A stretch of 64,000 bases of DNA from Escherichia phage skuden: the sequence record MN850585.1; one strand, given 5' to 3'. The notes beneath the pieces are model-generated. The model did not search any database. It was not told where the DNA came from and saw nothing but the letters and a program-made list of their open reading frames with translations. The stretch's first letter is position 1. Every line of letters starts with the position of its first letter. Position numbers and translations under genes: made by a program. Shown piece by piece: positions 31,841 to 33,256 of this stretch.

Positions 31841-33256
31841 TTACCAGATATAGCGGTCAATCATTACTGCTTTGAGCATTACGCTGATTGGGTCAAACTT
31901 CTCACCACCAAGCAGAGCTTTTAAAGTGGCTGGAGAGAAACCAGATACCATTGCTACACCGTTATCCTTAACAGACACTTCGCAAGTACCATTACGGTTT
32001 GCTAAGTACCAGAATACCAGTTGTGGCATTTCGTATCCAGCTTTCTTGTACTTACTCTGAATTGCTTCAAAGTTTGTACGACCGTTAGCTCCATCAACCT
32101 GATTGAACTCCATATCGGAGAAGATGATAAGCTTACTTGGCATATCTTTCTGAGTCAAGTTGTTTCTTTTACCTGTCTCAAGAATACGGTCAAAAGCTGC
32201 TTGTAAGTTAGTTGAACCATATTCAACATGACGCATCACCTGACGATGACGGTTTCGTAAATCACCACTCAGTTCGATGAAGTGAGGGTTTGTTGAGTAA
32301 ACCATTAACTCATTCTTAAAGCAACCAGTATTGCGTTCTGCTACATACAAGGCAAGTGATACACCAATATCCAGAGCAGTAATGGAGCCAAAATTCACCC
32401 AAGACATTGAACTTGATACATCAGACATACACAAGATGTTTTCACCTTCTGCCATCCAGTTTGGTAGTGCTTTCCACTGCTCATTAGCAACATCTGCATT
32501 ACCATACTTGACAGATTTAATCACATCGTATGGGTAAACAGCACCAGCGTTAATCTTAGTCTCACCTTTTGATAAGGACTCGATGTAAGCTTTGTAACGC
32601 TCTCCATCTTTACGGTTAAACAGTTTTTGGTAACGTGCAGCAGCAAGTGAAGGAATCTTACTGTAGTCAATCTTACCAAACTCATTAGCAGAGATTTTTT
32701 GCTCAACTGTATCAGATAGTGCAGACAACAGTGTGCGGTACTCTTTCTCACTCAAGTTGGCAAACTTGCAGAAACGTTTTACAAACTGCTTATGACGTGG
32801 TTTGACTCGTGGTAACCACTTAGCCGCCAAACCTGCTGTTGCAGGGTCTAGTAATGCTGCTTCTAAATGTTTGAAGGCATCTGTCTCGAAACGAGTACCT
32901 ACGAAGATTTTGAAGTCATCAAAACGACCAAGTTCTGCAATCTTATCCATAATGCGAAGAACCTGCGTAGACTCTAAAACTTTGTCTTCAATTGCTTGAA
33001 GCAAAACAGTTCTAAAGGCTTTACGCTCACCCATACCTTCTCGTACATCTCGCATATGAAGCAAAATACGAACTGCAACATCAACATCCTCACGCAAAGC
33101 TTTGTAGAACAGGTCTGGTAAGATTTCTACGTTGCTACGGCTTGAACCAGCAGCTTTGTAAAAGTCTACAAGAGCAGACATTGATGAAGTATGGTTTACA
33201 GCACCATTTTCAGTTCGACCTGCATGAAGGTGCGCATGTTTAAATAATTCGCTCAT
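31841..33256 (-). CDS. vWA-domain protein with N-terminal helical domain (possible TROVE/Ro60-like)
   Basis: 471 aa; MIDAS-like DxSxS motif (CMSDVSSSMSW), later LIIFSDMEFNQ typical of vWA fold; directly upstream of tRNA cluster; Ro-like assignment is from memory. Confidence 0.5.
   Translation of the reverse strand: MSELFKHAHLHAGRTENGAVNHTSSMSALVDFYKAAGSSRSNVEILPDLFYKALREDVDVAVRILLHMRDVREGMGERKAFRTVLLQAIEDKVLESTQVLRIMDKIAELGRFDDFKIFVGTRFETDAFKHLEAALLDPATAGLAAKWLPRVKPRHKQFVKRFCKFANLSEKEYRTLLSALSDTVEQKISANEFGKIDYSKIPSLAAARYQKLFNRKDGERYKAYIESLSKGETKINAGAVYPYDVIKSVKYGNADVANEQWKALPNWMAEGENILCMSDVSSSMSWVNFGSITALDIGVSLALYVAERNTGCFKNELMVYSTNPHFIELSGDLRNRHRQVMRHVEYGSTNLQAAFDRILETGKRNNLTQKDMPSKLIIFSDMEFNQVDGANGRTNFEAIQSKYKKAGYEMPQLVFWYLANRNGTCEVSVKDNGVAMVSGFSPATLKALLGGEKFDPISVMLKAVMIDRYIW

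What the first reader, a model, noticed from the sequence alone, without database searches (positions are those of the whole stretch)
31841..33256. vWA-domain protein with possible Ro60/TROVE-like architecture directly upstream of the tRNA cluster
This 471-aa protein has a C-terminal vWA fold with a MIDAS-like DxSxS motif (SDVSSSM) and the LIIFSD strand, preceded by a helical domain of about 270 aa. That arrangement is reminiscent of Ro60-type RNA-binding proteins, whose bacterial partners are Y-RNA-like RNAs with tRNA-like modules. The adjacent tRNA cluster contains several structured non-tRNA elements (28935-29029, 30770-30802, and inverted-repeat-flanked spacers) that could be such partner RNAs. 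The Ro60 link is from memory and is speculative.
Basis: inference. Interest (0 to 1): 0.55.

Follow-up and report, generated by a model that had tools for sequence, protein, structure and literature searches.

The report
Phage Ro60-like protein with Y-like RNAs
This phage gene encodes a ring-shaped RNA-binding protein of the Ro60 kind (its near-identical twin in phage Bas63 is already known to defeat a bacterial defence), and hidden between the neighbouring tRNA genes are four unannotated small RNAs that look like its partner "Y RNAs" and belong to a widespread, apparently undescribed RNA family.

Summary

The new part is the partner RNAs. They are not annotated tRNAs but four spacer elements, E1-E4 (30724-31509, -). 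Each has a terminal bulged stem, a single-stranded UACAGCAA and a variable insert. E4's insert is a permuted tRNA-like domain (T arm, closed stem, D arm), as in YrlA.

Covariance models find such modules beside homologous genes in 112 of 166 loci from two collections. Of 191 hits, 190 are on the gene's strand, at a median 184-225 nt from the gene, with a fully covarying stem. They also occur in loci without tRNAs. Protein-RNA binding and RNA expression are untested. The short modules resemble Dictyostelium Class I RNAs, which is unexplained.

The parts
31841..33256 (-). ORF of 471 aa encoding a Ro60-like RNA-binding protein (Pfam DUF2828 + DUF7788; PHROG 850). It is the ortholog of Bas63 gp130 and identical to wV8 gp47.
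   Evidence: 100% to wV8 gp47; 460/471 identical to bas63_0130.
32462..33256 (-). N-terminal alpha-helical domain (about aa 1-265) with a TROVE-like fold. It carries the family-invariant motif R69-D70-x-R72-x-G74-x-G76-E77-R78 and K146-W147-x-x-R150.
31841..32461 (-). C-terminal vWA domain (about aa 266-471) with a complete MIDAS (D279-x-S281-x-S283 encoded at 32408-32422; T349; D381).
   Evidence: Pfam DUF7788, E 1.7e-43. The MIDAS residues are invariant. The profile aligns this stretch to the Ro60 vWA/MIDAS, but weakly (E 0.22).
33296..33325 (-). Sigma-70-like promoter candidate upstream of the ORF (TTGACA-18-TAAAGT).
   Evidence: The same site is annotated as a promoter in phage AYO145A. 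This is a consensus match only.
31702..31822 (-). Two sigma-70-like promoter candidates (31822-31794 and 31731-31702) between the ORF's stop codon and tRNA-Pro. They are the likely start points of the tRNA/module transcript.
   Evidence: 10/12 matches each, perfect -35 hexamer. These are consensus matches only; the total count in the region is not above the shuffle expectation.
31431..31509 (-). E1, a short Y-like module that fills the spacer between tRNA-Glu and tRNA-Met. Layout: outer stem UGAC/GUCA, AGA bulge, stem AGACCAA/UUGGUCU, single-stranded UACAGCAA, G bulge.
   Evidence: CM R1 hit at 31433-31504, 37.0 bits, E 4.7e-6.
31273..31342 (-). E2, a short Y-like module that fills the spacer between tRNA-Met and tRNA-Asn (outer stem UUAC/GUAA; stem AGACCGU/ACGGUCU).
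   Evidence: CM R1 hit at 31275-31337, 44.1 bits, E 5.7e-8.
30868..30947 (-). E3, a short Y-like module (outer stem GAGC/GCUC; stem AGACCAA/UUGGUCU).
   Evidence: CM R1 hit at 30870-30942, 33.5 bits, E 4e-5.
30724..30860 (-). E4, a long YrlA-like module. It has the same closing stem and UACAGCAA (30838-30845). Its insert is a permuted tRNA-like domain: V hairpin, T arm (30786-30802), closed 'acceptor' hairpin (30768-30785) and D arm (30750-30766).
   Evidence: MFE fold -35.5 kcal/mol, z -2.67. CM R2, built only from other phage lineages, gives 30749-30855 as the top hit in the window (45.5 bits, E 3.9e-8; next best 23.8 bits).
26845..31675 (-). Array of 25 tRNA genes in which E1-E4 are embedded, interrupted by two protein genes and several longer spacers.
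   Evidence: the same order is annotated in Bas63.
28935..29029 (-). Conserved, stable 95-nt spacer element between tRNA-Thr and tRNA-Val. It is of unknown nature and is not shown to belong to the module family.
   Evidence: Fold -30.7 kcal/mol, z -2.96. It is nearly identical in Bas63, SUSP2 and Sf17, with 27 predicted pairs and no compensatory change. R1 does not hit it. R2 gives only a weak partial hit (29007-29057, 15.2 bits) across its junction with the neighbouring tRNA.

Best explanation
The ORF encodes a divergent Ro60-type protein: a TROVE-like helical domain plus a vWA/MIDAS domain. It is the ortholog of Bas63 gp130, a published counter-defence factor against the Ppl system. It is accompanied by four co-oriented small RNAs, E1-E4, embedded in the 5' part of the tRNA array. 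These are its Y-RNA-like partners. Three are short modules made of a terminal bulged stem, a single-stranded UACAGCAA and a variable loop. The fourth, E4, is a YrlA-like tRNA mimic. SHOWN here: the Ro60 fold of the model; the orthology to gp130; the existence, covariation and tight same-strand linkage of the RNA family with homologous genes in two independent sets of loci; and E4's membership of the tRNA-like subclass. INFERRED: (a) The modules are transcribed with the tRNAs from sigma-70-type promoters just downstream of the ORF. They are then released by the enzymes that process tRNA precursors (RNase P at the next tRNA's 5' end, 3' trimming after the previous one), and the terminal stem protects their ends. 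(b) The protein binds the conserved stem end plus UACAGCAA, as Ro60 binds the conserved Y RNA stem. (c) By analogy with Rsr/Y RNA/PNPase and the phiLo Ro60-Yrl-PNPase complex, the RNAs gate or tether the protein, so that the complex modulates host exoribonuclease action on structured RNAs such as phage tRNAs during infection. gp130 alone rescues T7 on Ppl hosts, so the RNAs are probably regulators or adaptors and not obligatory cofactors for the anti-Ppl activity.
Against: There are no expression or end-mapping data for E1-E4, and no binding data. gp130 expressed alone, from a plasmid or inside T7 (which has no such RNAs), is enough to counter Ppl, so the RNAs are not needed for that phenotype. 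Pfam TROVE does not match the protein at E<=1, and the profile-to-PDB sequence match to Ro60 is weak and covers only the vWA part (E 0.22). Rfam Y_RNA and YrlA do not hit the window even at E<=10. The canonical Ro-binding motif GNCGAAN0-1G is absent from E1-E4 (sequences). About a third of the homologous loci show no module at E<=1. The seed set was chosen by a descriptor that required a 7-bp stem, and alignments A3 and A6 are fitted to the model, so the pair counts lean towards the structure. E-values from the custom models are rough.
Confidence: 0.6

Rival explanations
1. The modules are ligands of the protein but act in cis. They would be operators or stability and processing elements within the gene's or the tRNAs' polycistronic transcript, for example for translational autoregulation, and not free Y-like small RNAs.
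For: In several loci a mini-module ends about 15 nt before the gene's start, right next to the Shine-Dalgarno sequence (L019 3954-3986, L022 3946-3986, L064 3907-3943). In the genome set, 89 of 100 hits lie upstream of the gene.
Against: In the window the modules lie downstream of the gene, behind separate promoter-like sites, and are bracketed by tRNAs whose processing would release them. In other lineages (L020, L026, L036 and others) they lie about 30 nt after the stop codon. The tRNA-like variants resemble YrlA, which is a free RNA.
Confidence: 0.2
2. The protein counters Ppl purely through protein-protein contacts, for example via its vWA/MIDAS face. The Ro-like fold would then be an evolutionary leftover, and the neighbouring RNA modules would have an unrelated role such as tRNA-array processing or stability.
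For: gp130 alone rescues T7 on Ppl hosts, without any Bas63 RNA. MIDAS residues are invariant, and vWA domains commonly mediate protein binding (established knowledge of the fold).
Against: The modules follow the gene, not the tRNAs. They occur in 64 of the 105 loci that have no tRNA. They sit a median of about 200 nt from the gene, and 190 of 191 are on its strand. N-domain residues such as RDxRxGxGER and KWxxR are invariant across the family, which argues against a vestigial domain.
Confidence: 0.15
3. E1-E4 are decayed tRNA genes or small mobile repeats (MITE-like) that accumulate in tRNA arrays and have no function.
For: They sit in a tRNA array. E4 contains T- and D-arm sequences. The copies share near-identical ends.
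Against: The stem covaries while UACAGCAA and the G after the stem stay 95-100% conserved across many phage lineages and host phyla. Orthologous inserts diverge while the ends are kept. In E4 the T arm precedes the D arm, as in YrlA and unlike a decayed tRNA. The modules occur without tRNAs, and in the window the short-module model R1 hits only E1-E3.
Confidence: 0.05

Closest known systems
Bas63 gp130 (Escherichia phage JohannRWettstein, MZ501086; PhageMaP preprint PMC11482910)
   Same: 98% identical (460/471), the same length, and the same position directly upstream of the same tRNA order. Its authors reported it as structurally similar to Ro60 and as a counter to the Ppl defence, transferable to T7. 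They also suggested Y RNAs among the neighbouring tRNA genes.
   Different: It is essentially the same gene. The paper guessed that some annotated tRNA genes might be Y RNAs. Here the candidates are unannotated spacer elements (E1-E4 and their Bas63 orthologs at L002 20066-20912), not the tRNAs.
Bacterial Ro60 (Rsr) with YrlA/YrlB or Yrn1 Y RNAs (Salmonella, Deinococcus; PMC4201824)
   Same: The protein has a ring-like helical domain plus a vWA/MIDAS domain. The RNAs are encoded within 4 kb on the same strand, usually several per locus. One of them has a tRNA-like domain in the order V-T-AS-D, closed by a stem that carries the protein-binding site. Relatives of this gene have sub-threshold Rfam YrlA hits next to them.
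   Different: The protein belongs to a different sequence family (DUF2828/DUF7788; no Pfam TROVE match) and is shorter (471 aa, against 496-538-residue Ro60/Rsr chains). The conserved RNA motif is a single-stranded UACAGCAA after the 5' strand, not GNCGAAN0-1G. The window's RNAs are embedded in a tRNA array. The window does not reach Rfam's YrlA model at all.
Thermus phage phiLo Ro60 with Yrl1/Yrl2 (PDB 9KOP, 9L5Y; PMC12135203)
   Same: It is a phage-encoded Ro60-fold protein of similar size (about 460 aa) and the best Foldseek hit (E 1.4e-8). It has adjacent small Y-like RNAs. It has been shown to bind them and host PNPase and to slow RNA decay.
   Different: phiLo's protein is named as a TROVE-domain protein in its PDB entry, and its RNAs carry a CGAA motif and lie upstream. 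Sequence identity to the window protein is only about 15%. No anti-defence phenotype was reported for it.
Dictyostelid Class I RNAs (Rfam RF01414; PMC7919456)
   Same: They are about 60 nt long, with a 6-bp terminal stem whose sequence varies but covaries. The closing G:C pair is conserved. A single-stranded CCUUACAGCAA follows the 5' strand directly, the 3' end is ...CUG(U), and the rest is variable. The Rfam model, built from amoeba sequences only, hits phage modules at exactly their coordinates. There are 7 full-length hits of 23-31 bits in six loci and a 15-bit hit on the window's E3.
   Different: All hits are below Rfam's gathering score (41.5). Class I RNAs are eukaryotic, have their own DUSE promoter, and their known direct binder is an RRM protein (CIBP/Rnp1A). 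No Ro-like partner is known, and I could not test whether dictyostelids encode a DUF2828 protein.
Phage T4 stable RNAs 'species 1 and 2' (RNA C/D) in the T4 tRNA cluster (from my own knowledge, not checked here)
   Same: They are small stable non-tRNA RNAs encoded inside a phage tRNA gene cluster, co-processed with the tRNAs, and of unknown function.
   Different: I made no sequence comparison. I did not check whether T4 carries a homolog of this gene.

Membership tests
Ro60 / TROVE-vWA RNA-binding proteins | N-terminal alpha-helical (HEAT-like) TROVE domain that forms a ring with the vWA domain | tested here: met
Ro60 / TROVE-vWA RNA-binding proteins | Sequence match to Pfam TROVE (PF05731) | tested here: not met
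   hmmscan at E<=1 returns only DUF7788 and DUF2828. The family profile against PDB sequences reaches Ro60 only at E 0.22, and only in the vWA part.
Ro60 / TROVE-vWA RNA-binding proteins | C-terminal vWA domain with a MIDAS motif | tested here: met
   D279-x-S281-x-S283, T349 and D381 are invariant in 33 sequences. The vWA fold is confirmed.
Ro60 / TROVE-vWA RNA-binding proteins | Y RNA gene(s) encoded nearby on the same strand (within 4 kb in bacteria and phages) | tested here: met
   E1-E4 lie about 330-1120 nt downstream of the stop codon on the same strand. The same linkage holds in 112 of 166 homologous loci.
Ro60 / TROVE-vWA RNA-binding proteins | Physical binding of Y RNA and of misfolded RNA; partnership with PNPase | not testable with these tools
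   This needs RIP, EMSA or a structure.
YrlA-type Y RNA (Rfam RF02553) | Terminal stem enclosing a tRNA-like domain in the order V, T arm, closed acceptor-like stem-loop, D arm | tested here: met
   E4's MFE fold. CM R2, built from other lineages, hits E4 at 45.5 bits, E 3.9e-8.
YrlA-type Y RNA (Rfam RF02553) | Match to the Rfam covariance model at its gathering score (69 bits) | tested here: not met
   There is no YrlA hit in the window at E<=1 or at E<=10 on 30700-31010. Relatives reach 34-45 bits, which is significant but below the gathering score.
YrlA-type Y RNA (Rfam RF02553) | Conserved 5' motif GNCGAAN0-1G (the presumed Ro-binding site) | tested here: not met
   I read the sequences of E1-E4 and found no such motif. 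The conserved motif is UACAGCAA.
Pfam DUF2828 + DUF7788 / PHROG 850 | Profile matches above the curated cut-offs | tested here: met
   DUF7788 scores 148.9 bits (cut-off 27.1) and DUF2828 102.2 bits (cut-off 29). PHROG 850 matches at E 5e-184 over the full length.
Anti-Ppl counter-defence protein (Bas63 gp130) | Orthology to the experimentally tested protein | tested here: met
   98% identity over 471 aa, with the same synteny.
Anti-Ppl counter-defence protein (Bas63 gp130) | Relief of Ppl-mediated restriction | not testable with these tools
   The phenotype is published only for Bas63 gp130.
Dictyostelid Class I RNA (Rfam RF01414) | Short terminal stem plus the 11-nt motif CCUUACAGCAA next to the 5' strand, length 42-65 nt | tested here: inconclusive
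   The stem is present, 8 of the 11 motif nucleotides (UACAGCAA) match, the 3' CUG is present, and the median length is 62-63 nt. The window's own E1-E3 are 70-80 nt long including the outer stem.
Dictyostelid Class I RNA (Rfam RF01414) | Match to the Rfam model at its gathering score (41.5 bits) | tested here: not met
   Scores are 15.3 bits on window E3 and 23-30.7 bits on modules in relatives.

The most novel reading that the evidence does not exclude
The short 'stem + UACAGCAA' RNAs that accompany DUF2828-type Ro-like genes in phages may be the same kind of RNA as the abundant Class I RNAs of dictyostelid amoebae. The function and origin of Class I RNAs have been open since 2004, and they were thought unique to Dictyostelia. 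If so, Class I RNAs would be Y-RNA-like partners of a Ro-like (DUF2828-family) protein. The family also has plant members. One candidate to check is DDB_G0281243, the protein of unknown function recovered in the DdR-21 pull-down. The phage/bacterial and amoebal systems would then share ancestry or a common binding mode.
Probability: 0.25. Interest if true: 0.85.

Novelty: new variant of a known kind. Interest (0 to 1): 0.66.

Why it matters
The protein itself is already explained: it is a Ro60-like protein that counters Ppl. The added value lies in the RNAs. First, a published guess ("some tRNA genes may be Y RNAs") becomes four specific, testable loci, and the same elements are located in Bas63, where the genetics already exists. 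Second, a large divergent branch of Ro60-like proteins (709 phage records, and more than 2,500 proteins at E<=0.001 among the candidates scored) turns out to have its own conserved class of Y-like RNAs. These have a different recognition motif and are absent from Rfam 15. That extends the Ro/Y RNA system well beyond TROVE-annotated genes. Third, the gene is repeatedly linked to tRNA arrays (all 517 tRNAs in the two locus sets are co-oriented with it) and, in Listeria phages, to an RtcB-like ligase and a second RNA ligase. This points to a role in handling phage tRNAs under attack by host defences, which can be tested with existing defence-system collections. Fourth, the resemblance to Dictyostelium Class I RNAs offers a concrete hypothesis for RNAs whose mechanism is unknown.

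Tried and rejected
- Single-sequence search of the PDB: nothing relevant.
- Rfam on the window, at E<=1 over 26000-34500 and at E<=10 over 30700-31010: no Y_RNA or YrlA hit.
- The 28935-29029 element as a partner RNA: it is stable and conserved, but it lacks UACAGCAA, shows no compensatory change, and neither CM finds it as a module. I therefore do not count it as a member.
- RNAalifold on a MAFFT alignment of full-length long modules: it recovered only the T stem and part of the AS stem, because the variable parts misalign. I solved this by trimming the sequences and giving the helices by hand.
- A first guess at the Bas63 accession (MZ501111) turned out to be another BASEL phage. The correct accession came from the paper.
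- AlphaFold-DB fold search, to see the family's taxonomic spread and any amoebozoan members: the library was unavailable.
- Chen 2014 supplementary phage list: not held. Two Ro60 reviews: not held.
- Literature searches for DUF2828, PF11443 and similar identifiers, for 'ACAGCAA', and for DDB_G0281243: nothing about this RNA family or that protein's domains.
- The idea that the annotated tRNAs themselves are Y RNAs (the PhageMaP suggestion): ARAGORN calls all 25 as tRNAs with anticodons, and Rfam scores 22 of them above the tRNA gathering score; the other three, which have long variable arms, scored best as sub-threshold tRNA-Sec. I found no reason to reinterpret them.
- Strand-composition artefact as the cause of the same-strand bias: rejected because of the positional clustering (62-67% of hits within 300 nt of the gene, against 7-12% expected).
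Full report
**1. Observation**

The ORF is at 31841..33256 on the minus strand, with an ATG start, and encodes 471 aa. ARAGORN finds 25 tRNA genes at 26845-31675, all on the minus strand. The first, tRNA-Pro (31599-31675), starts 165 nt after the ORF's stop codon. By tblastn the protein is 100% identical to gp47 of Escherichia phage wV8, so the window is a Felixounavirus. Gene order is ORF, short spacer, tRNA-Pro, and this order is kept in about 250 Felixounavirus-like records.

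**2. The protein**

Pfam assigns DUF2828 (E 3.9e-29) and DUF7788 (E 1.7e-43). There is no TROVE match at E<=1. PHROGs places the protein full-length in phrog_850, "RNA-binding protein" (E 5e-184).

Homologs are abundant. There are 709 phage records, from Escherichia, Salmonella, Vibrio, Aeromonas, Campylobacter, Mycobacterium, Listeria, Staphylococcus, Enterococcus, Bacillus and cyanophages. Some mycobacteriophage copies are already annotated "Ro-like RNA binding protein". In the large protein collection, 2,542 of the 8,000 candidates scored reach E<=0.001.

In a 33-sequence alignment the MIDAS residues D279, S281, S283, T349 and D381 are invariant. So are N-domain motifs such as R69-D70-x-R72-x-G74-x-G76-E77-R78 and K146-W147-x-x-R150.

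AlphaFold2 with this alignment gives a confident model (pLDDT 89.5, pTM 0.89). It is helical to about residue 263 and then has an alpha/beta domain. The fold searches agree:
- Foldseek against the PDB: all 11 hits with E<=1e-3 are Ro60 proteins aligned over the whole chain. They are Thermus phage phiLo 9L5Y/9KOP (E 1.4e-8), Xenopus 2I91/1YVR (TM 0.65-0.66), human 9NFA and Deinococcus Rsr 2NVO. After them come only isolated vWA domains.

At the sequence level the link is weak. The family profile's best PDB hits are Ro60, but at E 0.22 and only over the MIDAS strand. So the Ro60 architecture is supported by a predicted structure, and the protein belongs to a sequence family distinct from Pfam TROVE.

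**3. What is already published**

The PhageMaP preprint (PMC11482910) studied Bas63, a Felixounavirus (MZ501086). It reports four things:
- g130 counters the Ppl defence: deleting it gives small plaques on Ppl hosts, and complementation reverses this.
- gp130 expressed from a plasmid or inserted into T7 restores T7 plaquing on Ppl hosts.
[quoted passage not shown] bas63_0130 has the same length as the window ORF, is 460/471 identical to it, and is followed by the same tRNA order.

Two further precedents matter. Chen et al. 2014 found YrlA-type Y RNAs within 4 kb of Ro60 genes, on the same strand, in 254 bacteria and 22 phages. These RNAs have a tRNA-like domain ordered V, T, AS, D and a 5' motif GNCGAAN0-1G (PMC4201824). 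Hu et al. 2025 solved the Ro60 of Thermus phage phiLo and showed that it binds two adjacent Yrl RNAs and host PNPase, slowing RNA decay (PMC12135203).

**4. The partner RNAs in the window**

Reading the minus strand, four spacers share the sequence ACAGAAGACC-NNN-TACAGCAA, followed 40-110 nt later by GGTCTGG. The exact pattern AGAAGACCNNNTACAGCAA occurs four times, all at 30838-31505 (-), and nowhere else in 64 kb. The only other match needs 3 mismatches.

E1 (31431-31509), E2 (31273-31342) and E3 (30868-30947) fold alike. Each has a 4-bp outer stem, an AGA bulge and a 7-bp stem AGACCNN/NNGGUCU, then a single-stranded UACAGCAA, a variable insert, and a 1-nt G bulge on the 3' side. The copies differ by compensatory changes: UGAC/GUCA, UUAC/GUAA and GAGC/GCUC in the outer stem, and AA/UU versus GU/AC in the inner stem.

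E1 and E2 fill the tRNA-Glu/tRNA-Met and tRNA-Met/tRNA-Asn spacers to within 3-10 nt. Processing of the flanking tRNAs would therefore release them. This is an inference.

E4 (30724-30860) has the same closing stem and motif. Its insert folds into a four-way junction: a V hairpin, a T arm (GAAGG-UUCGAUU-CCUUC, 30786-30802), a closed stem-loop (30768-30785) and a D arm (GGUGU-AAUGGUA-GCACU, 30750-30766). The MFE is -35.5 kcal/mol with z -2.67. This is the permuted order described for YrlA.

Sigma-70-like sites with a perfect -35 hexamer lie upstream of the ORF (33325-33296) and between the ORF and tRNA-Pro (31822-31794 and 31731-31702). These are consensus matches only, and the total count is not above the shuffle expectation. 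Deposited annotations carry no RNA feature at the modules. Instead, an opposite-strand "hypothetical protein" (wV8 gp048 / AYO145A_047; window ORF 30630-30860 +) overlaps E3/E4.

**5. Comparative test**

I fetched the homologous locus from ten named phages of other lineages. tRNA arrays on the gene's strand adjoin the gene in:
- Suspvirus and Mooglevirus;
- a Stephanstirmvirinae Klebsiella phage, where the gene sits inside the array;
- Fletchervirus (3 tRNAs directly upstream);
- Tsamsavirus (20 tRNAs upstream);
- Schiekvirus;
- Pecentumvirus, which also has an RtcB-like ligase and an RNA ligase downstream.

A loose scan then showed tandem modules right beside the gene in these distant phages. 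Each has the form [quoted passage not shown], and the stem sequences are unrelated between lineages.

A strict descriptor was applied to 92 sequences: 80 from IMG/VR, 11 loci from named phages and the window region. It gave 93 hits on the gene strand and 9 on the opposite strand, against 3-11 in block shuffles.

From 26 diverse short modules (A2) I built covariance model R1. Its results, and related counts for the same locus sets, were:

| Measure | Viral set | Genome set, independent |
|---|---|---|
| Sequence searched | 872 kb, both strands | 80 loci, 516 kb, both strands |
| Hits at E<=1 | 91 | 100 |
| Hits on the gene strand | 90 | 100 |
| Loci with at least one hit | 55 of 86 | 57 of 80 |
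| Stem cells paired | 98.1% | 98.8% |
| Paired after shuffling | 59.1% | 65.8% |
| Paired after sliding the partner | 30-45% | 33-45% |
| Pairs with double-sided changes | 7 of 7 | 7 of 7 |
| Median distance to the gene | 225 nt | 184 nt |
| Hits within 300 nt (uniform expectation) | 62% (7%) | 67% (12%) |
| Loci without any tRNA that still have modules | 28 of 54 | 36 of 51 |
| tRNAs on the gene's strand | 393 of 393 | 124 of 124 |

The viral hits include loci that the strict descriptor missed, and in the window they are exactly E1, E2 and E3. The genome-set loci are mostly MAG contigs from many phyla.

The consensus is a W-R-G-N-Y-R-N stem, then N, then U(84%) A(71%) C(100) A(95) G(100) C(98) A(97) A(96). 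An A-rich stretch precedes the 3' strand, and a G follows the stem in 98% of cases. The median length is 62-63 nt.

Caveats: the seeds were chosen with a stem requirement, the alignments are fitted to the model, and E-values from the custom model are rough. The strand, position, slide and independent-set controls address these points.

**6. The tRNA-like subclass**

Rfam's YrlA model gives significant but sub-threshold hits right beside the homologous gene:
- Mycobacterium phage Nicholas: 7548-7656, 37.9 bits, E 5.6e-6;
- Enterococcus phage EFDG1: 5601-5724, 44.9 bits, E 8.5e-7; and 5423-5530;
- Klebsiella phage phi1_175008: 7715-7830, E 2.3e-4; and 7865-7967.

These hits coincide with my long modules. 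The long modules of Nicholas, Chewbecca and EFDG1 fold on their own into the same layout: closing stem, ACAGCAA, V, T, AS, D (z -2.2 to -3.8).

The Klebsiella locus reads gene, promoter, two short modules, two tRNA-like modules, one more module, then tRNAs. This mirrors the window.

Model R2 was built from seven long modules of non-Ounavirinae lineages only. It finds E4 as the best hit in the 64-kb window: 30749-30855 (-), 45.5 bits, E 3.9e-8, full length. The next hits, at 23.8 bits or less, are junctions between adjacent tRNAs. R2 also finds further members in loci that were not used to build it, all on the gene strand. E4 is therefore a member of a conserved YrlA-like subclass, although it does not reach Rfam's YrlA model.

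**7. Interpretation**

Shown: a Ro60-fold protein; orthology to a tested anti-Ppl factor; and a conserved, structured RNA family, with short and tRNA-like forms, that is genetically linked to this protein family.

Inferred: the RNAs are expressed with the tRNAs and cut out by tRNA processing. The protein binds the stem end plus UACAGCAA. The complex acts on RNA metabolism, by analogy with Rsr/Y RNA/PNPase and phiLo Ro60.

gp130 alone suffices against Ppl in T7. The RNAs are therefore more likely regulators or adaptors than cofactors for that activity. A purely protein-based anti-Ppl mechanism remains possible.

**8. Unexpected resemblance**

Rfam's Dictyostelium Class I RNA model was built from amoeba sequences only. 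It hits the phage short modules at exactly their coordinates, full length and on the gene strand:
- L059, 30.7 bits;
- L053, 26.4 bits;
- L087, 24.4 bits;
- L066, 23.4 bits;
- L012, 23.1 bits;
- L005, 25.0 and 24.0 bits;
- window E3, 15.3 bits.

These are the model's only hits in the sequences scanned, and all are below its gathering score of 41.5.

Class I RNAs are about 60 nt long. They have a covarying 6-bp terminal stem with a conserved closing G:C pair, a single-stranded CCUUACAGCAA right after the 5' strand, and a 3' CUGU. The phage consensus shares each of these features.

[quoted passage not shown] The DUF2828 family has plant members: the Aeh1 record notes similarity to Arabidopsis T31B5.30, and literature hits are. 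I could not test whether dictyostelids have one, because the AFDB libraries were unavailable and nothing is written on DDB_G0281243. This remains a lead, not a finding.

**9. Verdict**

The protein part is already known. The specific RNA partners, and the family they belong to, appear to be undescribed: they are absent from Rfam 15, no paper in the searchable library describes them, and deposited records do not annotate them. They are a new variant of the Ro60/Y RNA theme.

Noticed in passing
window 30630-30860 (+): This 76-aa ORF is annotated in relatives as a hypothetical protein (wV8 gp048, AYO145A_047). It lies antisense over the RNA modules E3/E4 and is probably a spurious gene call.
   Followed up: partly
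window 28935-29029 (-): This 95-nt spacer between tRNA-Thr and tRNA-Val folds very stably (-30.7 kcal/mol, z -3). It is almost invariant even in Sf17, whose gene-proximal region is only about 81% identical at the DNA level. It contains AGACCGUAACAAA, which faintly recalls the module's AGACCGUUUACAGCAA. Its nature is unknown.
   Followed up: partly
window 29436-29690, 29781-30018, 30096-30342 (-): Three long (about 240-255 nt) non-tRNA spacers inside the array are unexplained. They give weak Rfam hits: a long hairpin at 29431-29530 (MIR473, E 6e-4) and a tmRNA-like stretch at 30096-30285 (E 8e-4). The best promoter-like site in the region is at 30327-30299 (11/12 matches).
   Followed up: no
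L059 5692-5749, L053 5689-5748, L087 3888-3943, L066 3960-4017, L012 5624-5679, L005 7551-7604 and 7635-7689; window 30872-30939 (-): Rfam's Dictyostelium Class I RNA model (RF01414) hits the phage short modules at exactly their coordinates (15-31 bits, below the gathering score). Shared features are the terminal stem, UACAGCAA after the 5' strand, the 3' CUG and a length of about 60 nt.
   Followed up: partly
L012 (Listeria phage LP-083-2) 4429-4980 (+); 8815-10026; 11586-12527: A ROOL RNA (RF03087, 87.4 bits, just under the gathering score of 99.1) sits in the tRNA array about 1 kb upstream of the Ro-like gene. An RtcB-like ligase gene and a second RNA ligase gene lie downstream. Together these look like an RNA-repair neighbourhood, similar to the bacterial rsr-yrlA-rtcBA operon.
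   Followed up: no
L011 (Enterococcus phage EFDG1) 2071-2421 (+): There is a phage-encoded tmRNA (RF00023, 140.6 bits) inside the tRNA array upstream of the Ro-like gene.
   Followed up: no
L087 2253-2443 (+): A group I intron match (RF00028, 40.9 bits, below the gathering score of 50) lies next to tRNA genes upstream of the Ro-like gene in an uncultured viral contig.
   Followed up: no
L019 3277-3369, L021 3134-3231, L024 150-279, L025 1266-1372, L041 3734-3828 (+): A third class of module has the same closing stem and UACAGCAA, but its insert ends in a conserved hairpin CCUUUCUGGAGGGGAAAG followed by CAAAAACUCGCCAA. It is neither the short type nor the tRNA-like type.
   Followed up: no
L019 3954-3986, L022 3946-3986, L064 3907-3943 (+): Mini-modules (33-41 nt) end about 15 nt before the gene's start codon, right beside the ribosome-binding site. 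This could mean that the protein regulates its own translation.
   Followed up: no
window 33338-33709 (-): A 123-aa ORF directly upstream of the Ro-like gene on the same strand is annotated DUF5681 in RefSeq relatives. It has a basic, glycine-rich N-terminus and is conserved with the gene across Ounavirinae. I did not check whether it travels with the gene elsewhere.
   Followed up: no
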